Positions 106 to 14,043 of a stretch of 15,350 nucleotides of DNA are shown in pieces. How positions within the stretch are numbered: position 1 is the stretch's first letter; the number at the start of each line of letters is the position of its first letter. Source of the DNA: a virus (Duplodnaviria; Heunggongvirae; Uroviricota; Caudoviricetes). The notes under the pieces are model-generated. The model was given only the letters and a program-made list of their open reading frames with translations, was not told where the DNA came from and made no database searches. A program made the position numbers and the translations under genes. The stretch lies in the IMG/VR virus record IMGVR_UViG_2690316153_000018; one strand, 5' to 3'.

Positions 106-1161
106 TCATGCTTTCCACTTCAGGACACCCGAATTTCTCGCGTGCATTAAAAAACGAATCAGCAACAACAGCTGGCTGCCGTGTTTTTCTTCAAAATCTT
201 TTACCCCGGCGTGCAGTTCGTTATGACATTTACGGCACAGCGGAATAACAAACAAATCATCAGCCTTTGTTCCCATCCCTCCCAGTCCATGACCAATGAT
301 GTGATGCGGATCATCTGCCTGATTACCGCACGTCATGCATTTCTGCGTTTTTACCCAGCGCGTGTATACAGGCATCTCTTCCCGTTGTGGTTTCTGGCGC
401 TGGAGATACTGAGCCGGTGACTCCGGATCAACGGCAATGCTGACCACCGTCTTTTCCTGTGGCGGGTTTTGCTGGTGGGCGTGAGGCAGCAGCGCAAGAT
501 TTTTTGTGCGCTGCTTCAGTATGCTGGTGGCGGTCTGCTCTCCCGGTACGATGTCGCTTTCGCGGTACACCGAGCGGATTTTTTCCGCACGCAATCCCAG
601 AGAACGACGTAATACTGCCTCCGGCAATACGTCCGCTACCTGATTGCAGACCGCCCACCAGGATAATTCAGCCAGCGATAACTCCCGCTCCTGTGTACCG
701 TTTATTGCGTGGCGGATGACGTCAATCATCCAGGATGTCAGGTTTTGTTGAGCAAGTTGCCCGAGTGATTCTGAAGTCTGGTCGCGTAACTGATTATCAC
801 AGTGCCAGCACAATACCATTGCGCCGGTACCGTAACGATGTATGACGGTTTCACTGTGGTGGTAGTCACCATGAGGCCACTGGCAGGATTTAACATGGCG
901 TAACAGCCAGTCAGACAATGCGCCAGCGCCGCCAGCAGCACGAATCACCCGCTCATCGCTGAAAAATGGCAGTAATGATTTATCTTCCGCGAGCGGCTGG
1001 CGCACGGCAGGAACAGTTCCTGACGGCAGACCGCGCATGCTTTTCGGTTCCGGCTCCACCAGCACCCGGGGATTATGAAATACCTGCATGGATTCACGGC
1101 CCGGCTTAAGGACCACCAGCCCGAGTTCCGGTACCAGAACAGGTCGAAGTAATACCCGCAC
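106..1161 (-). CDS. ydfU: DUF968 / YdfU-like phage protein with C-terminal HNH-like zinc-binding motif (nin-region protein)
   Basis: 351-codon ORF with GTG start at 1161 preceded by GGAGG at 4-nt spacing. C-terminus CMTCGNQADDPHHIIGHG...PLCRKCHNELH is a CxxC...H...CxxCH HNH/NinG-like motif. Matches my recollection of E. coli YdfU. Confidence 0.75.
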   Translation of the reverse strand: MRVLLRPVLVPELGLVVLKPGRESMQVFHNPRVLVEPEPKSMRGLPSGTVPAVRQPLAEDKSLLPFFSDERVIRAAGGAGALSDWLLRHVKSCQWPHGDYHHSETVIHRYGTGAMVLCWHCDNQLRDQTSESLGQLAQQNLTSWMIDVIRHAINGTQERELSLAELSWWAVCNQVADVLPEAVLRRSLGLRAEKIRSVYRESDIVPGEQTATSILKQRTKNLALLPHAHQQNPPQEKTVVSIAVDPESPAQYLQRQKPQREEMPVYTRWVKTQKCMTCGNQADDPHHIIGHGLGGMGTKADDLFVIPLCRKCHNELHAGVKDFEEKHGSQLLLLIRFLMHARNSGVLKWKA

Positions 1162-1507: not shown

Positions 1508-1816
1508 TCACTCATCTTCAAAAGCAGAAAAACCAGCCTTAATCCCAGCTTCTTTCAGAGACGGCAACGATGTGACAAATTCATTTGCACGCAAAATAAA
1601 ACCATCCGTCACAAGCCCATCCACCAAATGAATTAACGCAGCTCCACTCTTCCTTTGTTGAGACTGTAAACATTTAATACGGCAGTGGCTGACAATAGCG
1701 CCATTCTCAACGCGCACAGTATAGAGGCCATCCTCACTAAAAATTTCACGTAATTCTTCGATTTTCATCAACAGAATCCTTCCAGATAAATAGCACTCCC
1801 CCTGTTCGGGGTCCAT
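1508..1816 (-). CDS. hypothetical phage protein (102 aa; alternative start at 1768 giving 86 aa, MKIEELREIF...)
   Basis: ORF with ATG at 1816 (purine-rich GGGAGAAGAGGG upstream) and an in-frame ATG at 1768 (GGAAGGA upstream). No recognisable motif. Confidence 0.5.
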   Translation of the reverse strand: MDPEQGECYLSGRILLMKIEELREIFSEDGLYTVRVENGAIVSHCRIKCLQSQQRKSGAALIHLVDGLVTDGFILRANEFVTSLPSLKEAGIKAGFSAFEDE

Positions 1817-1898
1817 CCCTCTTCTCCCTGCGCGCTACTTAAGTATTTTTGATTCTATTCTGGCACCGTCCAAAACTTCAAACACGTTGAAAATAAAA

Positions 1899-1921
1899 AC
1901 AAAAAACCCGCCGAAGCGGGT
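1899..1921 (-). terminator. Rho-independent terminator for minus-strand transcription (stem CCCGC / loop CGAA / stem GCGGG, then a U-run on the minus strand)
   Basis: Plus strand reads aaaaaaaCCCGCcgaaGCGGGt, so the minus-strand transcript is a GC hairpin followed by 6-7 U. It lies 5 nt downstream of the stop of the 1926..3029 gene. Confidence 0.55.
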
Positions 1922-1925
1922 ATAC

Positions 1926-3029
1926 TCAAACAATCTGGAAAATATTTCTTGGATTTGTAATAGGTCTGTTGATGGAGAACAACTCACGAATTAAATCTTG
2001 GCTCAAGCCAGTTTTCATAAGAATTCTTAGCCAGGTTGCATCATCCAGCATTTCAATCGCCTCGGCCAGCATACCGGGTTCTTCAGGGCGCAAAAGTTCA
2101 TCACCAGGTTCAACTCTCGTATACCCTCTGGAATTAAGATGCATATAGCCAGTTCTTGCCTGTTCCTGGGTCAATAAGCCTAATGCGCTGGCTCGATAAA
2201 TACACATTTTAAGGCTGATTTTCCATCTAAGTTTAAATTCAACCAGAGCATTCCAGTCGAATTGCTTACCTCGTATTCGTGGAAATTCTTTAATGAAAGA
2301 TAACCTGGGAACTAATAAGGCGCTCGAAAAGTGATCGGCTTGTGATTCCGTAAGTTTATCACCTGTCGTTATGCCCTCATGCATTACTAAATGCCCTAAT
2401 TCATGACCTAAATCAGAGCGAAATCTACATATGCTTTTTTTAACATTGTTCCTGATGATAACAGGCCTGTTATTGTGAACAGTAAAAGCATCAACACGAT
2501 CATCGACTCCCGTAACATGCGCAACGATTACCCCTAAACTCTCCGCCAATTTAACCATTGATGATATAGGGCCAAGACCTAAATTCCAGGCACGGCGACA
2601 ATCTTCTGCCACTCGCTCAATATCATTCGGAGTAAGTAATTCAGCCCCTGGGTGCTCCGGTATGTTAACGTCAGGAAATTCGATTTCACCTTCAACAGCA
2701 GAAATTATAATATTAAGAATCTCAGCCCTGGCCAATACACTATTAGTCAGCGTTTGAGTCCTGGACTTCTTACTCCGAAAATGGCAGACATCACTTTCCA
2801 GAGCGTATTTTCGTTCAGTAAAAAGAAAACTGGACTTAATCATAAGCGCTGAAGATATTAACTCAAGACATTGCTCCGATGGCCTGCACCCCTTCTCCAG
2901 TTTGCTAACGAATTGCTTTGTCTTGCCAATTTTTTCGGCTAACTCTTCACAAGAAAGCCCAACAGCCATTCTCGCTAGTTTGAGCTTATCACCCCGATAC
3001 TCAGTGAAGTTATTCACCTGATGTTCCAT
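1926..3029 (-). CDS. Fusion protein: N-terminal XRE-family helix-turn-helix + C-terminal ImmA/IrrE-type (COG2856/DUF955-like) zinc metallopeptidase
   Basis: N-terminus LKLARMAVGLSCEELAEKIGKTKQFVSKLEKG is a typical XRE HTH. HExxH motif present in DLGHELGHLVMHEG. ORF track starts at GTG 3032; an ATG at 3029 is the likelier start. The 5' end overlaps the stop of the upstream gene by about 20 nt. Confidence 0.8.
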   Translation of the reverse strand: MEHQVNNFTEYRGDKLKLARMAVGLSCEELAEKIGKTKQFVSKLEKGCRPSEQCLELISSALMIKSSFLFTERKYALESDVCHFRSKKSRTQTLTNSVLARAEILNIIISAVEGEIEFPDVNIPEHPGAELLTPNDIERVAEDCRRAWNLGLGPISSMVKLAESLGVIVAHVTGVDDRVDAFTVHNNRPVIIRNNVKKSICRFRSDLGHELGHLVMHEGITTGDKLTESQADHFSSALLVPRLSFIKEFPRIRGKQFDWNALVEFKLRWKISLKMCIYRASALGLLTQEQARTGYMHLNSRGYTRVEPGDELLRPEEPGMLAEAIEMLDDATWLRILMKTGLSQDLIRELFSINRPITNPRNIFQIV

Positions 3030-3660
3030 CACTGCTCACATCCAAATCTTTATCCTTCGTACGCCGACGAAGAGGCACCTTATTAATCTCCGCTTCGTCA
3101 GGGAGTGTGTTATAATCAAGAGGCATAAGCGGCATCGATGCTGTAGATTGATGAGAAACTATACTAATCTGAGCACCATAAGTATTAAATCCAACAAGAG
3201 CTACCTCCCAACGAGGCAGTGTGGACTCTAATTCACCATCGCCCTCTTCGGATAAAAAAGGCTCAGCTATGACTCGCCATGTAATATCTTGCTCAGCCTC
3301 AACATCACCAAACAATGAGAGTTGCTCATACTCTACTTTATTTCGACGCAGACGATGTTTCTTTTTGGGGTTATTAATGCAATCTTTGGTAAATTGTAGC
3401 GGAACTTTATTTAAAGCAACTACATAGTCCAACCCCTTGGAAATCATCTCAAGGCCAGGAATTGCATCTTCATTTTGAATAAGATGATTTCTGACCCAAT
3501 CATAAGCCCTTACACCTTCAGACCAGTTGCTGTCTAATGCGTGCTTATGATAGTACAGCTGCTCAAGTACGTTAGCGATCTCCGCCAACAAGTGGCGAAC
3601 ATAGTTTTCAGCAAGATAAGGTTGAAATTCCCAACAAGGAGCTAACTGATTTTCATTCAT
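3010..3660 (-). CDS. hypothetical protein (216 aa), translationally coupled to the downstream HTH-peptidase gene
   Basis: ORF with ATG at 3660; its stop (3012..3010) overlaps the start of the HTH-ImmA gene. No motif I can assign. Confidence 0.7.
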   Translation of the reverse strand: MNENQLAPCWEFQPYLAENYVRHLLAEIANVLEQLYYHKHALDSNWSEGVRAYDWVRNHLIQNEDAIPGLEMISKGLDYVVALNKVPLQFTKDCINNPKKKHRLRRNKVEYEQLSLFGDVEAEQDITWRVIAEPFLSEEGDGELESTLPRWEVALVGFNTYGAQISIVSHQSTASMPLMPLDYNTLPDEAEINKVPLRRRTKDKDLDVSSDGTSGE

Positions 3661-3695
3661 TTCAAGTTTCGCTTTTTTTAGAATTCGTAAACCAC

Positions 3696-3724
3696 ATATT
3701 TTCGCATTTTTCTATTTTTGTCAA
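3696..3724 (-). promoter_or_regulatory. Candidate sigma70 promoter for the 3660..1926 cassette (minus strand)
   Basis: Minus strand has a perfect TTGACA (plus coords 3724..3719), a 17-nt spacer, then a weak -10 AAATAT (3701..3696), about 35 nt upstream of the ATG at 3660. Judged by eye only. Confidence 0.3.
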
Positions 3725-3736
3725 CCAGACTAATGC

Positions 3737-3756
3737 AAAAACCCGCCGAAGCGGGT
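3737..3756 (-). terminator. Rho-independent terminator-like hairpin (minus strand), identical in sequence to the one at 1902..1921
   Basis: Plus strand aaaaaCCCGCcgaaGCGGGt; the minus-strand transcript is the same hairpin followed by UUUUU. It lies about 70 nt downstream of the hokD stop. Confidence 0.45.
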
Positions 3757-3825
3757 TAAGTGCGGGTGCGTTGAGGATGCCTGGCACATCAGAGGTGGCG
3801 GGAGATTACTCCCCCGCCGGGTCTC

Positions 3826-3981
3826 TTACTCCTCAGGTTCGTAAGCTGTGAAGACAGCGACCTCCGTCTGGCCGGTTCGGATTCGTACCTCGCAGAGGTC
3901 TTTCCTCGTTACCAGTGCCGTCACTATGACGGTTAAACAGATGACGATCAGGGCGATTAACATCGCCTTTTGCTGCTTCAT
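3826..3981 (-). CDS. hokD: Hok/Gef-family small membrane toxin (51 aa from the internal ATG; the ORF track extends to 4038)
   Basis: Translation MKQQKAMLIALIVICLTVIVTALVTRKDLCEVRIRTGQTEVAVFTAYEPEE has a single TM helix and the conserved C-terminal Cys/Arg/Tyr-Glu pattern of Hok-family toxins. Matches my recollection of E. coli HokD (RelF). Confidence 0.8.
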   Translation of the reverse strand: MKQQKAMLIALIVICLTVIVTALVTRKDLCEVRIRTGQTEVAVFTAYEPEE

Positions 3982-4660
3982 AGCCTGCTTCTCCTTGCCT
4001 TTCGGCACGTAAGAGGCTAACCTACGTGTGTAGAGCATAGATATGGCCTCAGATTAATGTTAAGCGTCTTGCCGGACGCGTAATGTTAACTGGGGCTTTT
4101 CTCTATCTGCCTTTGGTGTTGATGCCCGAGGCAGATAGCCTCAAGCACCCGCAGCAATTCTACTTAACTACCGTTACCTCGCCAATATGAAATCAATCAG
4201 AAAGGTGATCCATAAGAACAACAGCAAGACAATAAATTGCCATTACAGCAGCAATAGCCAGCGCACATTTGAGAACCAGCACCACAACCTCCTGTATTGG
4301 ACGTACACCAGTCCTGATAAATATGAGGCTGTCTCGTCAGTGATTCAATACAACTACTGGGTATAGTTTCTATGATTTTGTTCTGTGGAAATGGAAAACA
4401 GCAACCAGTCACCACCAGCACTTCTTTAAACATGCCAAGTCACACGCAAGCCAACATTATAGTTCCCTTTGAGCGAGCAGATGAAGCTAGCAAAAATATT
4501 GATCACTTAGGATGCATTACTAACGTTGCTATGTGTTAACGAACAGGGAGTGGGTCATCAGCATAAATATTTATGCAGTAGGTTTCTTTTAGGACTAGAT
4601 TAATCAAAAACATTTAGATAAAATTATAAAATCAAGAAATTGGTGGCAATTAATCTTTAA

Positions 4661-4689: not shown

Positions 4690-4724
4690 AGATTAGCTTT
4701 TTTTTTGAGTGTTTGGAGAGTAAA

Positions 4725-5420
4725 ATGTTAGAACCACCAAAGAGTTATAATGAAATGTTGCCTATGCTCCATAAGGCGACTTTTATTACTACATTTATAT
4801 TTTACCTATCATTAGTCATTTATGGCTACATGCCATTGGTTGGCATTAATGCCAAGTATATCCCCCCCGTTAAAGACTACGAGGAATTTATTAAATGGAT
4901 ATTAACCTTTGGCATATTACCAATTGCATCTTCAGTTTTTTGGTCAGTAATTAGTGGAGCTTTAGATCTACATAATAATGTAGCAAAAATTATTGGAATA
5001 AGGAAGATGTGGGATAGTCATTTAATTATTAAACCATTAGCAAAAATTGCAGGCGTTACGAGAAAATTAACTACTGATGAATCTCACAAGGTAATGAGTA
5101 AACTGTATTACCCAGAAGTTAAAGAGTTAAAAGACAAACATTACGTTGAACTTTTCTGGAACAAAGTTTATTACTTTTGGGTTTTCTTTGAACATACAGT
5201 AATCGCATTTGTTACTATTTTAATAATAAGTATCGCCAAATTAACAAATATATTCTCTGTTACTGGCTCTTTAATTAATCTTTGGTTGTGGATTATTTCT
5301 CTTGTCGCATTTGACTTCCTTATTTTCATAGCATCAGTTAAACCAAGAACAGAAAGCCAAGTAAGACAAATACCTGATAGCAAAATAAAAGAATTCTTTA
5401 ACAATAACAATATTTTTTAA
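4725..5420 (+). CDS. Integral membrane protein with four predicted TM helices (2 TM + ~65-aa loop + 2 TM), function unknown
   Basis: ATG at 4725 preceded by GGAGAG at about 5-nt spacing (the ORF track starts at TTG 4713). Four hydrophobic stretches: ATFITTFIFYLSLVIYGYMPLVGI, FIKWILTFGILPIASSVFWSVISGAL, VYYFWVFFEHTVIAFVTILIISIA, TGSLINLWLWIISLVAFDFLIFIASV. Codon usage is strongly AT-rich. Confidence 0.8.
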   Translation: MLEPPKSYNEMLPMLHKATFITTFIFYLSLVIYGYMPLVGINAKYIPPVKDYEEFIKWILTFGILPIASSVFWSVISGALDLHNNVAKIIGIRKMWDSHLIIKPLAKIAGVTRKLTTDESHKVMSKLYYPEVKELKDKHYVELFWNKVYYFWVFFEHTVIAFVTILIISIAKLTNIFSVTGSLINLWLWIISLVAFDFLIFIASVKPRTESQVRQIPDSKIKEFFNNNNIF

Positions 5421-5426
5421 ACGAGG

Positions 5427-6086
5427 TTGATTTTGAATTACAAAATAAATGGAATAAACATACGTTCAGAAAATGCAGCGAAACCGCACACTATGCCATC
5501 TAACTATCTCTGTAAACAGATTGAAAGCACTAATAAAAATGGCAATGCCCTTGATTTTGGATGTGGAAAACTTAGATATTCAGAACAATTAGTAAATAAA
5601 TTTGAAACTGTGACATTTTTAGATTCCAGAAGACAACTAGAAAGAGTGCAAATTATCAGAGGTGTACAAACCACGATTCCAGATTACGTGATAAATAACT
5701 ATAAGAATGCTAATATTGTTTCTTATGAAAATATAGATAAAATAACAAATCATTATGATTTCATACTTTGCGCAAACGTGCTTTCCGCAATTCCATGTGA
5801 ATCCACAATTCACAAAGTCCTCAGTGCGATTAGAGAATTATTAAAGAGTGATGGTGAAGCACTGATTGTCAATCAATACAAAAGTTCTTATTTCAAGAGG
5901 TACGAGAGCGGTATTAAACATTTGCATGGGTATATATACCAAAACTCTCGCAATGCTTTCTACTATGGTTTATTAGATGTGGATACTGTAAGTAAAATAT
6001 GCTCAGATAATAATTTAGAAATAATAAAATCATGGAGCAAAGCAGGTAGTTCATATGTGGTTGTTGGTAAACATATACATATTTAG
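5427..6086 (+). CDS. Small class-I SAM-dependent methyltransferase-fold protein (about 217-219 aa), substrate unknown
   Basis: Motif I ALDFGCGKL, acidic residue ending beta-2 (TVTFLDS) and a motif-IV-like YDFILCANVLSAIP. Start is TTG at 5427 or 5433; GAGG at 5423..5426 gives good spacing to 5433. The first in-frame ATG is at 5493. Lies 6-12 nt after the stop of the membrane-protein gene. Confidence 0.7.
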   Translation: MILNYKINGINIRSENAAKPHTMPSNYLCKQIESTNKNGNALDFGCGKLRYSEQLVNKFETVTFLDSRRQLERVQIIRGVQTTIPDYVINNYKNANIVSYENIDKITNHYDFILCANVLSAIPCESTIHKVLSAIRELLKSDGEALIVNQYKSSYFKRYESGIKHLHGYIYQNSRNAFYYGLLDVDTVSKICSDNNLEIIKSWSKAGSSYVVVGKHIHI

Positions 6087-6400: not shown

Positions 6401-7300
6401 TTATAAATCAACAACATTTAGTGTTATATCAATATTATTTAGCCTTGCAATCTCTGATGAATCACTTGCTATTTTAGCTTTTAATTTATCAATATTAATC
6501 ATATCTTCATGGCTTATATAAACCATATCACCTTGGTTAACTTTAGATTTGTTCACTATGGCTTGAATAACAGACAAATCATCCATTACACCTCTCATAA
6601 ATTTCACCATGCTTTGATCTTTGAAGTCAGATATCGATTTTGAACGTTGCTTACGTTGAATTGTTCCTTTTGTAATTACTTCATTAATTTCTTTTAAACC
6701 AGTGAGCATATCAGACAGACTGCCTTCGCAACTCATCCGATGTTTTATTGCATTGCGATTAATAATATTGAGTATAATTTCGAGTGAATCTTTATCACTC
6801 CATGGATGTAATGATGTATAATCATGATGACGTCGAATGGCGTCAATCATATCCTGGACCATATCTTCATCTGCTTTATCGCAAAGTTCATTCACGAAAT
6901 AGCTGGGGTCGATTATTTTACAATAACTTGGAGTTAGGTATCTTGAGGCTTTACAAAAACCAAAAATATATAAAGTAGAGTATTTATCTTTCAGACTCTC
7001 TCCTATTTCATTTATTTTCTCAAAAGATTCGATAGTTTTTTTAATTTTTGCTGGACTTGCATTCGTAGTAACTTGAACTGCTATCATGTTTTTATTATCA
7101 GCTAAATCAATGGCGGGAAAATTAACTTTAATCTGATTCATGTTTACCAGCTCACCCATTTTCAGCGCGCGAAACATAAAGATGGTCAATGACTCAATTA
7201 TTCTTTCCATGTCATGAAAGCCTGCCTGTTTGCGTTGCGCGATATAAAGCTGGAGTAGTGCAATATCACTCTGTAAGTTTCTAATAAGTGGATCAATCAT
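6401..7300 (-). CDS. hypothetical protein (299 aa); N-terminal region resembles, from memory, a SMEK-type domain
   Basis: ORF with ATG at 7300 and AAGGA about 9 nt upstream. N-terminal HDMERIIESL and NFPAIDLADNKNMIAVQVTTNASPAKIKKTIESF resemble the signature I associate with SMEK-domain proteins; not verified by HMM. AT-rich codon usage; convergent with the 4725..6086 operon. Confidence 0.75.
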   Translation of the reverse strand: MIDPLIRNLQSDIALLQLYIAQRKQAGFHDMERIIESLTIFMFRALKMGELVNMNQIKVNFPAIDLADNKNMIAVQVTTNASPAKIKKTIESFEKINEIGESLKDKYSTLYIFGFCKASRYLTPSYCKIIDPSYFVNELCDKADEDMVQDMIDAIRRHHDYTSLHPWSDKDSLEIILNIINRNAIKHRMSCEGSLSDMLTGLKEINEVITKGTIQRKQRSKSISDFKDQSMVKFMRGVMDDLSVIQAIVNKSKVNQGDMVYISHEDMINIDKLKAKIASDSSEIARLNNIDITLNVVDL

Positions 7301-11925: not shown

Positions 11926-14043
11926 ATGAGTAAAGTCTTTATTTGCGCTGCTATTCCTGATGAACAGGCCATAAAAGAAGATAGCGCTGTTGCGGTGGCC
12001 ACTGCCATTGAAGCTGGTGATGAGCGTCGCGCACGCGCAAAATTTCATTGGCAATTTCTGGAGCAATTCCCTGCAGCTCAGGACTGCGCTTATAAATTTA
12101 TTGTCTGTGAGGATAAACCCGGCATACCCCGCCCTGCCCTCGATTCCTGGGATGCTGAATATATGCAGGAAAACCGCTGGGATGAGGAGTCTGCTTCCTT
12201 TGTCCCGGTTGAGACTGAATCCGATCCGATGAACGTCACTTTTGACAAGCTGGCCCCTGAAGTACAGAACGCTGTCATGGTTAAGTTCGACACATGTGAA
12301 AACATCACCGTTGATATGGTTATTAGCGCACAGGAATTGTTGCAGGAAGACATGGCAACATTCGACGGACATATCGTTGAAGCGTTGATGAAAATGCCAG
12401 AAGTTAACGCCATGTATCCGGAGCTTAAGCTGCATGCCATCGGGTGGGTTAAGCATAAATGTAAGCCTGATGCCCTTCGCTACGACCGCCAGACTATTTT
12501 TGGCCTTGTCCGTGAACGTCCGATCGACATTCACAAAGACCCTGTGGCACTGAACAAATACATTACTGAATACCTGACTACAAAGGGCGTGTTTGAAGAT
12601 GAAGGAACAAATCAGAGCGCAACTGATACTCTCTCGTCGTCAGTACCAGAAACTGATGCAGTGGAAACGGCAATTCCGGACAACGAAAAAACCGAATGCA
12701 AAGTGGAAGTCGAACCATCTGTAGAGCGTGAGGGGCCGTTCTACTTCCTCTTCACCGACAAGGATGGCGAAAAATACGGTCGCGCAAACAAACTTTCTGG
12801 TCTGGATAAGGCACTGGCTGCCGGGGCTACTGAAATCACGAAAGAAGAATATTTCGCCCGCAAAAACAGTACATACTCAGGTTCACAACAAAATACTGGT
12901 GCATCTGACACGACCGCACAACCAGAGCCGGTAAAAGTTACCGCTGACGAAGTAAACAAAATTATGCAGGCAGCCAATATCAGCCAGCCTGACGCCGATA
13001 AGTTGCTTGCTGCCTCTCGCGGAGAATTTGTTGCAGGGATTAGCGACCCGAATGATCCGAAATGGGTAAAGGGGATGGAAACCCGCGATTCTGTAAACCA
13101 GAACCAGCAAGAATCGGAACAGAACGACCAGAAAGCGGAACAAAACAGCCCAAATACGCAACAAAACGAGCCAGAAACGAAACAACCTGAGCCAGTAGCG
13201 CAACAGGAACCGGAAAAAGTCTGCACCGCCTGCGGTCAAAGCGGTGGTGGCAACTGCCATGATTGTGGCGCGGTGATGGGTGACGCAACATACCAGGAAA
13301 CATTCGATGAAGAGAATCAGGTTGAAGTTCAGGAAAATGATCCGGAGGAAATGGAAGGCGCTGAACATCCACACAAGGAGAATGCTGGTAGCGCTCAGGA
13401 TCACGCCAGCGATAGTGAAACTGGCGAGACGGCAGATCCCTTAATTACGGTGAACGGTCATCACGTTATCACATCCACCAGCAGGACGTGTGACCATCTA
13501 ATGATCGACCTTGAAACCATGGGAAAAAATCCTGATGCCCCGATTATCTCAATAGGTGCAATATTTTTCGATCCGCAAACCGGAGATATGGGACCGGAAT
13601 TTAGTAAGACTATTGATCTGGAAACTGCTGGCGGAGTCATTGATCGGGACACCATTAAATGGTGGCTTAAGCAATCACGCGAAGCGCAATCTGCCATTAT
13701 GACCGATGAAATCCCGTTAGATGATGCACTGTTACAATTGCGGGAATTTATCGACGAAAACTCCGGTGAATTTTTTGTTCAGGTCTGGGGTAACGGTGCA
13801 ACTTTCGACAACGTGATTTTACGCCGTTCATATGAACGGCAGGGGATCCCCTGCCCGTGGCGTTACACCAATGATCGCGATGTAAGAACGATGGTTGCTC
13901 TGGGACTGGTGATGGATTTCGACGCAAGAACGACTATTCCATTCGAAGGTGAACGCCATAACGCTCTGAACGATGCACGTTACCAGGCGAAATACGTTTC
14001 AGCCATCTGGCAAAAACTGCTCCCGAGTCAGGCTGATTTTTAA
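11926..14043 (+). CDS. ydfE: Full-length YdfE-like protein (705 aa) with C-terminal DEDD-type (DnaQ-like) 3'-5' exonuclease domain
   Basis: Long uninterrupted ORF. C-terminus has exonuclease motifs MIDLETMG (Exo I), [12 protein letters not shown] (Exo II) and HNALNDARY (Exo III). A CxxC-x8-CxxC zinc-ribbon-like motif ([16 protein letters not shown]) and an acidic/Gln-rich low-complexity linker precede it. Confidence 0.85.

What the first reader, a model, noticed from the sequence alone, without database searches (positions are those of the whole stretch)
1926..3660. Two-gene cassette: unknown 216-aa protein translationally coupled to an HTH-XRE/ImmA-IrrE metallopeptidase fusion
The 368-aa protein combines an XRE HTH with an HExxH peptidase domain of the ImmA/IrrE (COG2856) type. 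Such regulators are known to de-repress mobile-element or defence genes by proteolysis in response to a signal (ImmR/ImmA of ICEBs1; CapH/CapP controlling CBASS). Here the repressor and peptidase are fused, and the gene overlaps by about 20 nt an upstream unknown protein that could be the controlled effector, a sensor or a toxin. The pair sits between two terminators with a possible promoter of its own (perfect -35 TTGACA), which is typical moron organisation.
Basis: partly seen in the sequence, partly recalled or inferred. Interest (0 to 1): 0.7.

Follow-up and report, generated by a model that had tools for sequence, protein, structure and literature searches.

The report
RosmerTA toxin–antitoxin defence cassette in prophage
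The two overlapping genes are a member of the already named RosmerTA toxin–antitoxin/anti-phage family carried as a self-contained insert in an E. coli lambdoid prophage, and the toxin carries a conserved sliding-clamp-binding motif that suggests how it poisons the cell.

Summary
Two minus-strand genes overlap by 20 nt: a 216-aa protein (3660..3010), then a 367/368-aa XRE-HTH + M78 Zn-peptidase (3029/3032..1926). Near-identical terminators bracket them, and they have their own promoter.

Both proteins match the PADLOC RosmerTA profiles: RmrT PDLC03929 at 4.6e-25 and RmrA PDLC03943 at 6e-105.

This is the Vmi480/Vmi470 subfamily, shown to be a toxin–antitoxin pair in 2015. It is not the subfamily that Millman et al. 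tested against phage.

The 1,835-bp cassette sits between hokD and rem, flanked by a duplicated 20-bp terminator. Related phages have an empty site with one copy. 237 of 5,426 complete E. coli genomes carry the cassette. The pair is co-conserved, toxin first, from Serratia to Pseudovibrio, and the promoter layout is conserved too.

One new lead: RmrT has an exact β-clamp-binding motif, QLSLF (aa 113–117). It is conserved across this family and, in register, in the Millman-type RmrT family. A third Rosmer toxin, RipA, is known to bind the DnaN pocket. I infer a clamp-poisoning toxin; this is untested.

Verdict: new member of a known kind, moderate interest.

The parts
3010..3660 (-). rmrT: 216-aa toxin gene, Vmi480-type RmrT (PADLOC PDLC03929, phrog_5786)
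   Evidence: ORF and translation. PADLOC RmrT 4.6e-25, full length. phrog_5786 8e-85. 26% identity, E 7e-15, to the Vmi480-like toxin. All 54 of 54 distant relatives hit PDLC03929.
1926..3029 (-). rmrA: 367-aa antitoxin gene, XRE HTH + M78 (ImmA/IrrE) Zn-peptidase + C-terminal domain. An alternative GTG start lies at 3032.
   Evidence: PADLOC RmrA PDLC03943 6e-105. 47% identity to Vmi470-like. 29% identity to the Millman-verified RmrA.
3010..3029 (-). 20-nt overlap of the rmrT 3' end with the rmrA start (translational coupling)
   Evidence: Coordinates. Overlaps of 8-20 nt or a 5-bp gap are seen in homologous pairs.
2844..2984 (-). HTH_3 (XRE) DNA-binding domain of RmrA (aa 17-63 of the 368-aa form)
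   Evidence: Pfam PF01381, 5.2e-07. PDB sequence hits to SinR and 434 repressor HTH domains.
2187..2504 (-). Peptidase_M78 domain of RmrA (aa 177-282 of the 368-aa form)
   Evidence: Pfam PF06114, 6.4e-11. PADLOC capP partial hit 1.6e-14.
2391..2405 (-). HELGH zinc-binding/catalytic motif (aa 209-213 of the 367-aa form)
   Evidence: H209, E210 and H213 are invariant in 20 homologues, together with H217 and E228.
3310..3324 (-). QLSLF (RmrT aa 113-117): exact match to the bacterial β-clamp-binding motif consensus QL[S/D]LF
   Evidence: Translation. Column conservation: E110 50/54, Q113 44/54, L116 39/54. 70 of 109 family members have Qxx[LM]F or the hexapeptide form at this position. The motif aligns in register with the Millman-type RmrT family. 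Consensus taken from PMC12309361.
3667..3726 (-). Promoter/operator region. -35 TTGACA at 3724..3719; weak -10 AAATAT at 3701..3696. Two tandem copies, period 33 nt, of GGTT(G/T)AC-N-GCGAAA: GGTTGAC 3726..3720 with GCGAAA 3705..3700, and GGTTTAC 3693..3687 with GCGAAA 3672..3667.
   Evidence: Sequence. GTTGAC is invariant and GTTTAC is present in 5 of 6 aligned upstream regions from Serratia, Xenorhabdus, a second E. coli type, V. thalassae and V. fluvialis. The promoter and operator roles are inferred.
3740..3757 (-). Intrinsic terminator upstream of the cassette (ends hokD transcription)
   Evidence: 7-bp stem, 5 GC pairs, T-run.
1906..1921 (-). Intrinsic terminator downstream of rmrA
   Evidence: 6-bp stem, 5 GC pairs, T-run.
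1902..1921 (.). Left copy of the 20-bp direct repeat AAAAACCCGCCGAAGCGGGT bounding the 1,835-bp insertion
   Evidence: The empty site in PPompW phages holds a single copy.
3737..3756 (.). Right copy of the 20-bp direct repeat

Best explanation
This is a RosmerTA (rmrT-rmrA) toxin–antitoxin module of the Vmi480/Vmi470 subfamily. It is carried as a self-contained moron (terminator, promoter, rmrT, rmrA, terminator) between hokD and rem in the early/nin region of an E. coli lambdoid (Qin/Rac-like) prophage.

Shown here:
- The anatomy of the cassette.
- Membership by curated profiles for both genes.
- Intact peptidase catalytic residues.
- Strict co-conservation of the pair and of its promoter layout.
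- The insertion/empty-site relationship.

Taken from the literature on homologues:
- The toxin is lethal when expressed alone and is neutralised by the HTH-peptidase (Vmi480/Vmi470).
- rmrA-type genes cannot be deleted alone.
- An E. coli prophage homologue makes clpP essential.
- Other Rosmer systems protect against phages.

Inferred mechanism. RmrA binds the tandem GGTT(G/T)AC...GCGAAA repeats through its HTH and autoregulates the operon. It also keeps RmrT harmless, through direct binding and/or peptidase- and ClpXP-dependent turnover. When an infecting phage disturbs this balance, RmrT is freed and arrests the cell, so the lysogen population is protected (abortive infection).

For the toxic step I propose that RmrT docks into the hydrophobic protein-binding pocket of the β sliding clamp (DnaN) through its conserved QLSLF motif and blocks replication. 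This is what is reported for the unrelated-in-sequence Rosmer toxin RipA and for SocB.

My sub-confidences are: Rosmer-type TA about 0.9; anti-phage role about 0.6; clamp targeting about 0.4.
For: Profiles. PADLOC RmrT PDLC03929 4.6e-25 and RmrA PDLC03943 6.2e-105, both near full length. PHROGs 5786 and 2439. NCBIfam spr1629-family antitoxin, below its cutoff.

Link to an experimentally studied pair. I recovered the Vmi480/Vmi470-like pair by searching for the published cloning primers. It matches in lengths (198/362 aa), in the 5-bp gap and in both termini. It is homologous to the window pair at 26% (E 7e-15) and 47% (E 1e-123) and hits the same PADLOC models. Vmi480 is lethal in E. coli and is neutralised by Vmi470 (PMC4671572).

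ClpP link. The E. coli E101 prophage homologue of Vmi480/470 makes clpP essential (10.1101/2020.05.25.114553).

Definition and defence data. RosmerTA was defined, and ΔrmrA was not obtainable. Phage Kita RmrTA defends against two BASEL phages.

Catalytic residues are invariant.

Co-conservation was found in Xenorhabdus, Serratia, V. fluvialis, Pseudomonas, Pseudovibrio, V. thalassae/Ningiella and a second E. coli type.

The promoter layout is conserved. The insertion has a 20-bp duplication and an empty site in related phages. The cassette is present in 237 of 5,426 complete E. coli genomes.

Clamp motif:
- Exact QLSLF, conserved in the family.
- 72 of 109 members carry a pentapeptide or hexapeptide clamp-binding motif, against 8.0 ± 2.9 in per-sequence shuffles.
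- All six strict QL[SD]LF hits among about 230 ORFs of the fetched loci are RmrT proteins.
- The Millman-type RmrT family has QLKLDL, QLDLF, QIDLF, QLSLF and QLELDL at the homologous place, aligned in register by hhalign (E 0.0016, 180 columns).
- RipA binds the DnaN pocket and depends on ClpX. Its N-terminus reads MLNQDLF.
- The consensus and the sub-micromolar binding of QLSLF to E. coli DnaN come from PMC12309361.
Against: - Nothing has been tested on this protein pair or on any relative above about 41% identity (toxin).
- Phage defence has been shown only for other Rosmer subfamilies.
- Rosmer toxins are heterogeneous: the phage Kita RmrT depolarises membranes.
- RipA shows no detectable sequence similarity to this family, so its target cannot simply be transferred.
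- About a third of family members deviate from a canonical clamp motif (for example QMDWI).
- The AF2 model puts Q113-S115 at the end of a helix rather than in an extended peptide.
- Conserved hydrophobic residues could be structural.
- The -10 element is weak and the scan tool did not call the promoter.
- How RmrA neutralises RmrT, and what the peptidase cleaves, is unknown.
Confidence: 0.8

Rival explanations
1. The pair is a genuine toxin–antitoxin module, but its selected role is addiction or stabilisation of the prophage or of the moron itself (post-segregational killing), not defence against other phages.
For: It sits next to another addiction-type toxin, hokD. Vmi480/470 sits on a mobilisable genomic island. 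Antitoxin genes of this family cannot be deleted alone. This subfamily has not been tested against phage.
Against: Other Rosmer systems do protect against phages. The V. fluvialis homologue lies beside a reverse transcriptase + AAA ATPase pair, a defence-island-like context. Prophage accessory slots are typical sites for defence genes. The two roles are not mutually exclusive.
Confidence: 0.2
2. RmrT is a toxin of this family, but QLSLF is a structural or antitoxin-contact element. The target is then something other than the clamp, for example nucleic acid cleaved by a degenerate PD-(D/E)xK-like fold, or the membrane.
Confidence: 0.35
3. The fused HTH-peptidase is an ImmR/ImmA- or CapH/CapP-like stress-responsive switch that controls prophage induction or other cargo genes. 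The 216-aa protein would then be a sensor or accessory factor rather than a toxin.
For: The domains are shared with ImmA/IrrE and CapP. The invariant linker motif CHFRS (F84, R85) between the HTH and the peptidase could be a cleavage site.
Against: The prophage has its own dicA/dicC-type immunity switch elsewhere in the window. The cassette is absent from otherwise similar phages and occupies different slots in different prophages, islands and chromosomes, so it is autonomous. The upstream protein's homologue is lethal on its own. No CBASS or ICE genes are adjacent.
Confidence: 0.05

Closest known systems
RosmerTA (RmrT/RmrA) anti-phage toxin–antitoxin systems (Millman et al. 2022; verified system from E. 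coli OLC-716)
   Same: The architecture is the same: a toxin of unknown function first, then an XRE-HTH + Zn-peptidase antitoxin. RmrA is homologous (29% identity, E 2e-35). Both window genes match PADLOC Rosmer models. The clamp-binding-like motif lies at the equivalent position of the toxin.
   Different: The toxin belongs to another sequence family (PDLC03929 versus PDLC03935). There is no pairwise similarity and only a weak profile-profile signal (Prob 16%, E 0.0016). Defence has not been tested for this subfamily.
Vmi480/Vmi470 toxin–antitoxin of Vibrio mimicus MGIVmi1 (Luo et al. 2015, PMC4671572)
   Same: It is the same subfamily. The toxin is 26% identical (E 7e-15) and the antitoxin 47% identical (E 1e-123). 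It hits the same PADLOC models, has the same gene order and shares the promoter layout. Toxicity and neutralisation have been shown experimentally.
   Different: The host element differs: a mobilisable genomic island rather than a lambdoid prophage. There is a 5-bp gap instead of a 20-nt overlap. The motif takes the hexapeptide form QISLEL rather than QLSLF.
E. coli E101 prophage TA E101_02645/02644 (Rousset et al. 2021)
   Same: It is a prophage-borne homologue of Vmi480/470 in E. coli, reported at 33%/42% identity. It makes clpP essential, which points to protease-dependent control of the toxin in this subfamily.
   Different: It is a different protein. The suppressor residue T46 is W46 here and N46 in the second E. 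coli type I examined. I could not retrieve its sequence, so the relationship is indirect.
RipA/RipB (Spr1630/Spr1629) of Streptococcus pneumoniae (PMC12795458)
   Same: It is a Rosmer-class pair (PADLOC RmrT PDLC03931, RmrA PDLC03945). RipB is 25% identical to the window RmrA. The toxin binds the hydrophobic pocket of DnaN and needs ClpX to be kept in check.
   Different: RipA has no detectable similarity to the window toxin. Its clamp-like motif, if real, is N-terminal (MLNQDLF). It is chromosomal in a Gram-positive and linked to competence.
SocAB type VI toxin–antitoxin of Caulobacter crescentus
   Same: The proposed logic is the same: a toxin that blocks replication by occupying the β-clamp pocket and is held down by ClpXP-dependent proteolysis (PMC5422525 and PMC12795458).
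   Different: There is no sequence or domain relationship. SocA is a small proteolytic adaptor, not an HTH-metallopeptidase. This is a functional analogy only.
ImmR/ImmA (ICEBs1), IrrE/DdrO and CapH/CapP (CBASS regulators)
   Same: These share the M78 (COG2856) metallopeptidase paired with an XRE HTH. Both sets of systems sit on mobile-element or defence loci.
   Different: In those systems the repressor and the protease are separate proteins and control a neighbouring operon. Here they are fused and paired with a toxin gene upstream in the same operon. Neither a CBASS operon nor ICE genes are nearby.

Membership tests
RosmerTA | Two adjacent co-oriented genes forming one operon: toxin (RmrT) plus antitoxin (RmrA) | tested here: met
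   Minus-strand genes 3660..3010 and 3029..1926 overlap by 20 nt and share one promoter and one terminator.
RosmerTA | Antitoxin carries an XRE-type HTH and an M78/COG2856 Zn-peptidase with intact HExxH | tested here: met
   Pfam HTH_3 5e-07 and Peptidase_M78 6e-11. H209, E210, H213, H217 and E228 are invariant in 20 homologues.
RosmerTA | Both proteins match curated Rosmer profile models | tested here: met
   PADLOC RmrT PDLC03929 4.6e-25 (aa 7-209 on profile positions 5-195 of 198). RmrA PDLC03943 6.2e-105, plus 13 further RmrA models.
RosmerTA | RmrT is toxic alone and is neutralised by RmrA | not testable with these tools
   Shown only for the homologue Vmi480/Vmi470. Supported indirectly by the failure to obtain ΔrmrA.
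RosmerTA | Confers protection against phage infection | not testable with these tools
   Shown for the E. coli OLC-716 system and for phage Kita RmrTA, both with different toxin families.
Vmi480/Vmi470 subfamily (PDLC03929/PDLC03943) | Sequence homology of both partners to the experimentally studied pair | tested here: met
   BLASTP 26% (E 7e-15) and 47% (E 1e-123) against the pair recovered with the published primers. The recovered loci are from V. thalassae and Ningiella, not V. mimicus itself.
ImmR/ImmA or CapH/CapP regulatory pairs | Separate repressor and protease genes regulating an adjacent ICE or CBASS operon | tested here: not met
   HTH and peptidase are one polypeptide. The neighbours are hokD and rem-like phage genes, with no CBASS or ICE genes.
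β-clamp-binding proteins (functional class) | Conserved QL[S/D]LF or QLxLxL motif able to dock in the DnaN pocket | tested here: inconclusive
   The motif is present exactly (QLSLF, aa 113-117) and is conserved. Binding to DnaN was not testable, and the model places part of the motif in a helix.
PD-(D/E)xK nucleases | Conserved catalytic acidic/lysine residues on an αβββαβ core, with significant structural similarity | tested here: not met

The most novel reading that the evidence does not exclude
Rosmer toxins of at least two sequence families share a canonical β-sliding-clamp-binding motif (QL[S/D]LF or QLxLxL) at an equivalent position. The two families are the Vmi480 type found here and the Millman-verified E. 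coli OLC-716 type. RipA may be a third.

Rosmer would then be, in large part, a family of clamp-poisoning abortive-infection systems. Their toxins would be held down by an HTH-metallopeptidase together with ClpXP, a logic convergent with SocAB. I found no report of this motif in the searchable literature: only the RipAB paper links Rosmer to the clamp, and it does not mention a motif.
Probability: 0.4. Interest if true: 0.65.

Novelty: new member of a known kind. Interest (0 to 1): 0.4.

Why it matters
As a cassette it is ordinary. It adds one more prophage-borne RosmerTA module to E. coli, present in about 4% of complete genomes, and it shows once more that the hokD/rem stretch of lambdoid prophages is an exchange point for toxin and defence cargo.

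The useful part is mechanistic. What most Rosmer toxins do, and why relatives depend on ClpX/ClpP, is still open. A conserved clamp-binding motif in two toxin families, read together with the published RipA–DnaN data, turns that question into a few simple experiments: motif point mutants, DnaN binding and dnaN pocket suppressors. It would also identify the replication clamp as a recurrent target of abortive-infection toxins.

Tried and rejected
- Direct sequence search of both proteins against PDB chains. There was nothing for RmrT at E ≤ 10. For RmrA there were only HTH hits and spurious repeat-protein hits.
- The afdb50 library was unavailable.
- A nuclease (PD-(D/E)xK) reading was considered because restriction enzymes recur among the weak hits. 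I rejected it for lack of conserved catalytic residues.
- tblastn of RmrT against 50,697 phage records found no match, even though a PHROG family exists.
- The search for related loci with the diverse alignment failed because there was no conserved 7-10-column stretch.
- I could not obtain the E101_02645/02644 sequences. A second E. coli type (L014) is related (41% and 58%) but is not that protein, since residue 46 is N.
- RipA was recovered through its primers but is not detectably homologous to the window toxin.
- An inverted-repeat operator search gave only a weak palindrome around GAATTC. The conserved feature turned out to be a tandem direct repeat instead.
- No paper in the library mentions WP_001004956 or WP_000401168.
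Full report
**1. What is in the sequence**

The window carries two minus-strand ORFs at the stated coordinates.
- A 216-aa ORF runs 3660..3010 with an ATG start.
- A 368-aa ORF runs 3032..1926 with a GTG start.

In E. coli FORC 064 the 2-kb stretch 1800-3800 is 100% identical. There RefSeq annotates a 651-nt hypothetical protein (WP_001004956.1) and a 1,104-nt 'helix-turn-helix domain-containing protein' (WP_000401168.1) that starts at the ATG at window 3029. The overlap is therefore 20 nt, or 23 nt from the GTG.

Pfam finds HTH_3 (aa 17-63) and Peptidase_M78 (aa 177-282) in the longer protein and nothing in the 216-aa protein. The HExxH motif is HELGH at residues 209-213 of the 367-aa form.

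Terminator-like hairpins lie at 3757..3740 and 1921..1906 on the minus strand. A perfect TTGACA lies at 3724..3719. The best -10 candidate is AAATAT after a 17-nt spacer, which is why the consensus scan did not list this promoter.

**2. Context and how the cassette got there**

The surrounding genes are those of a lambdoid Qin/Rac-like prophage:
- a DUF968/HNH (ydfU-like) gene and rem-like small genes on one side;
- hokD, replication genes, ydaT, dicC/dicA, an exonuclease and an integrase on the other.

The flanks of the cassette match PPompW, mEp460 and related phages. In those phages the two flanks are contiguous: 165 bp in all, lying between rem and gef/hokD.

The cassette is bounded by a perfect 20-bp direct repeat, AAAAACCCGCCGAAGCGGGT, at 1902-1921 and 3737-3756. 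This repeat is the hokD terminator hairpin and is present once in the empty site. So a 1,835-bp unit has been inserted at, or exchanged through, that terminator. The unit reads promoter, two genes, terminator copy, which is a textbook moron.

The full cassette (≥80% coverage) occurs in 237 of 5,426 complete E. coli genomes. The flanks alone occur in about 4,000.

**3. Identity**

Against PADLOC, the 216-aa protein matches RmrT model PDLC03929 (4.6e-25, aa 7-209 on profile positions 5-195 of 198). The 368-aa protein matches RmrA model PDLC03943 (6.2e-105) and 13 further RmrA models. It gives only partial hits to CapP and CapH.

PHROGs has families for both proteins: phrog_5786 (unknown function) and phrog_2439. 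NCBIfam gives a sub-threshold hit to the 'spr1629 family repressor/antitoxin' model.

[quoted passage not shown] Ernits et al. describe the family as one RmrA (ImmA-type, often with an HTH) paired with many different toxins. They also showed defence and membrane depolarisation for the phage Kita member.

**4. Which Rosmer**

The system verified by Millman et al. (E. coli OLC-716; sequences in their supplement) has a 239-aa toxin. That toxin shows no pairwise or sequence-to-profile similarity to the window toxin and belongs to PADLOC model PDLC03935. Its RmrA is 29% identical to the window RmrA.

The window toxin belongs to a family of roughly 200-aa proteins.
- A profile search of 1.84 billion representatives found 69 members at E ≤ 0.001.
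- They come from Enterobacterales, Aeromonas, Vibrio, Pseudomonas, Photobacterium and Pseudovibrio, and all are annotated as hypothetical.
- All 54 that I aligned hit PDLC03929, and none hits Pfam.

Millman et al. cite Luo et al. 2015 for this configuration. That paper showed that vmi480 (198 aa) of Vibrio mimicus MGIVmi1 is lethal in E. coli. It is neutralised by the downstream vmi470 (362 aa, HTH + Zn-peptidase), and vmi470 cannot be deleted alone.

I recovered the pair by searching for their cloning primers. In V. thalassae and Ningiella there is a 198-aa ORF (MTKKPEFY…QKKVSDE), followed after 5 bp by a 362-aa ORF (MIYQAVN…PLRSV). These match all four primers.
- The toxin is 26% identical to the window toxin (E 7e-15).
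- The antitoxin is 47% identical to the window antitoxin (E 1e-123).
- Both hit the same PADLOC models as the window proteins.

Rousset et al. 2021 found that an E. coli E101 prophage pair, 33%/42% identical to Vmi480/470, makes clpP essential. A T46S change in that toxin suppresses the effect. I could not retrieve that sequence. A second E. coli type that I did retrieve (L014) is 41% and 58% identical to the window pair and also lies next to hok in a lambdoid prophage. It is not the E101 protein.

**5. Co-conservation and the peptidase**

In every context examined, the toxin gene is immediately followed by an HTH-M78 gene of 361-373 aa, overlapping it by 8-20 nt or separated from it by 5 bp. 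The contexts were:
- Xenorhabdus, in the nin region of a prophage;
- Serratia, between Q and the holin;
- V. fluvialis, beside a resolvase and a reverse transcriptase/AAA ATPase pair;
- Pseudomonas and Pseudovibrio chromosomes;
- V. thalassae/Ningiella;
- the second E. coli type.

An alignment of 20 RmrA sequences, down to 28% identity, keeps H209, E210, H213, H217 and E228 invariant. It also keeps a linker motif, (E)QCHFRS (F84, R85), and a DAF motif.

**6. Regulatory region**

The upstream regions of cassettes from very different surroundings share one layout: GGTTGAC(A), a spacer, GC(G/A)(A/T)AAAT, then a second GGTTTAC and a second GCGAAA-like element.

In the window these form two tandem copies with a 33-nt period:
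- GGTTGAC at 3726..3720 with GCGAAA at 3705..3700;
- GGTTTAC at 3693..3687 with GCGAAA at 3672..3667.

The first copy coincides with the -35 and -10 elements. The second lies between the -10 and the start codon.

Conservation across contexts argues for a real promoter. That the repeats are the operator of the RmrA HTH is my inference.

**7. The toxin**

With the 54-sequence alignment, AF2 gives a confident model (pLDDT 87.4, pTM 0.76). It has two long helices, a β-meander, an excursion of about 35 residues (aa 96-125) and three more strands.

The excursion holds the family's most conserved linear element: E110-x-x-Q113-L-S-L116-F117. A basic stretch (NPKKKHRLRRNK) precedes it, and a variable acidic linker follows.

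QLSLF is an exact instance of the bacterial clamp-binding consensus QL[S/D]LF. That peptide binds E. coli DnaN with sub-micromolar affinity (PMC12309361).

Among 109 family members:
- 54 have Qxx[LM]F at this position;
- 16 more have the hexapeptide form, for example QLSLPL (identical to the E. coli tight-binding clamp peptide used in PMC12309361; the Hda motif, from my own knowledge), or QISLEL in the Vmi480-like protein;
- the third position is mostly S, D or T, as in genuine motifs.

Per-sequence shuffles give 8.0 ± 2.9 members with such a motif, against 72 observed. This control ignores the relatedness of the sequences. Among about 230 ORFs of at least 150 aa in all fetched loci, the six strict QL[SD]LF matches are all RmrT proteins.

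**8. The motif is not confined to this family**

I fetched five plasmid-borne homologues of the Millman-verified toxin (24-39% identity). Each is followed by an XRE/ImmA gene.

At one aligned position they read QLKLDL (OLC-716), NYDLF, QIDLF, QLDLF, QLELDL and QLSLF.

A profile-profile comparison of the two toxin families gives a weak but collinear alignment over 180 columns (Prob 16%, E 0.0016), and it places the two motifs in register. [quoted passage not shown]

A third Rosmer toxin, RipA of S. pneumoniae, has been characterised experimentally:
- Seven suppressor substitutions map to the hydrophobic partner-binding pocket of the clamp.
- The system depends on ClpX.
- The authors draw the parallel with SocB.

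I recovered RipA/RipB through their primers. They are PADLOC RmrT PDLC03931 and RmrA PDLC03945. RipA is not detectably similar to the window toxin. It begins MLNQDLF, which resembles the xxDLF part of the motif.

In the searchable library only the RipAB paper links Rosmer to the clamp, and it names no motif.

**9. Most likely mechanism**

*Shown here.* This is an autonomous, promoter-to-terminator rmrT-rmrA operon of the Vmi480/Vmi470 subfamily. Its peptidase site is intact and its regulatory layout is conserved.

*From homologues.* The toxin kills when it is alone, and the antitoxin is indispensable. ClpP or ClpX is needed to keep related toxins harmless. Other Rosmer systems defend against phages.

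*Inferred.*
- RmrA autoregulates the operon through the tandem repeats.
- Together with ClpXP, RmrA prevents RmrT from accumulating.
- Infection upsets this balance.
- Free RmrT plugs the DnaN pocket through QLSLF and stops replication of both cell and phage.

What the peptidase cleaves, and what signal triggers the system, are unknown.

The main rivals are:
- an addiction-only role;
- a toxin target other than the clamp;
- far less likely, an ImmR/ImmA-type switch with a non-toxic partner.

**10. Verdict**

But the system is a member of a named and modelled family whose subfamily was shown to be a toxin–antitoxin pair in 2015.

As a cassette it is a new, uncharacterised member of a known kind. 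Its added value is the clamp-binding motif shared by two Rosmer toxin families. This is a motif-level inference, and it can be tested directly.

Noticed in passing
window 6401-7300 (-): A 299-aa protein with an N-terminal SMEK_N domain (Pfam 2.2e-22). It also matches the N-terminal part of PADLOC 'Aga_REase-PNTD1-PNTD2' (1.4e-20). This is a conflict-system-associated domain, carried in the same prophage accessory region as the Rosmer cassette.
   Followed up: partly
window 4713-6086 (+): Two adjacent plus-strand genes lie opposite in orientation to the surrounding early genes. One is a 235-aa protein with no Pfam or PADLOC hit. The other is a 219-aa class I SAM methyltransferase with only a weak PADLOC mad2 hit (1e-4). 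The function of this possible further cargo module is unknown.
   Followed up: partly
window 3826-4038 (-) and locus L014 6302-6457: hokD (HOK_GEF, 2.9e-23) lies immediately upstream of the cassette. A second, 41%/58%-identical E. coli Rosmer pair sits just upstream of a hok gene in another lambdoid prophage. The hok neighbourhood seems to be a recurrent landing site for these cassettes.
   Followed up: partly
RmrA C-terminus (window about 1926-1960) and linker (about 2770-2790): Across 20 RmrA homologues the extreme C-terminus ends in a hydrophobic L-(R/K)-L-V(-K)-like tail (here …NIFQIV). A linker motif (E)QCHFRS, with invariant F84 and R85, sits between the HTH and the peptidase. Either could be a degron or a self-cleavage site relevant to the ClpXP dependence; this is speculative.
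   Followed up: no
locus L007 6883-10111 (Vibrio fluvialis): Directly beside the Vmi480-like pair lie a reverse transcriptase (RVT_1), an SMC/AAA ATPase and a small ORF. This retron-like or other RT-based defence candidate indicates a defence-island context for this Rosmer subfamily.
   Followed up: no
window 106-1161 versus locus L001 10383-11354: The 100% match to E. coli FORC 064 was established only for window 1800-3800. At the position where the window has a DUF968/HNH (ydfU-like) gene, that genome is annotated with the T3SS effector nleB2, followed by nleC, nleH and nleF. This points to mosaicism just beyond the cassette. I did not align the flanks.
   Followed up: no
window 11926-14043 (+): A 705-aa ORF ends in an Rv2179c-like 3'-5' exoribonuclease domain (1.1e-65). 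In the related locus the corresponding gene is annotated simply as 'exonuclease' and is longer (2,472 nt), so the start of the ORF listed here may be too far downstream.
   Followed up: no
locus L004 5850-5873 (Serratia) and window 3740-3757: In Serratia too, a G+C-rich hairpin lies just upstream of the conserved rmrT promoter. The terminator-promoter-genes arrangement travels with the cassette, or is re-created at each site.
   Followed up: no
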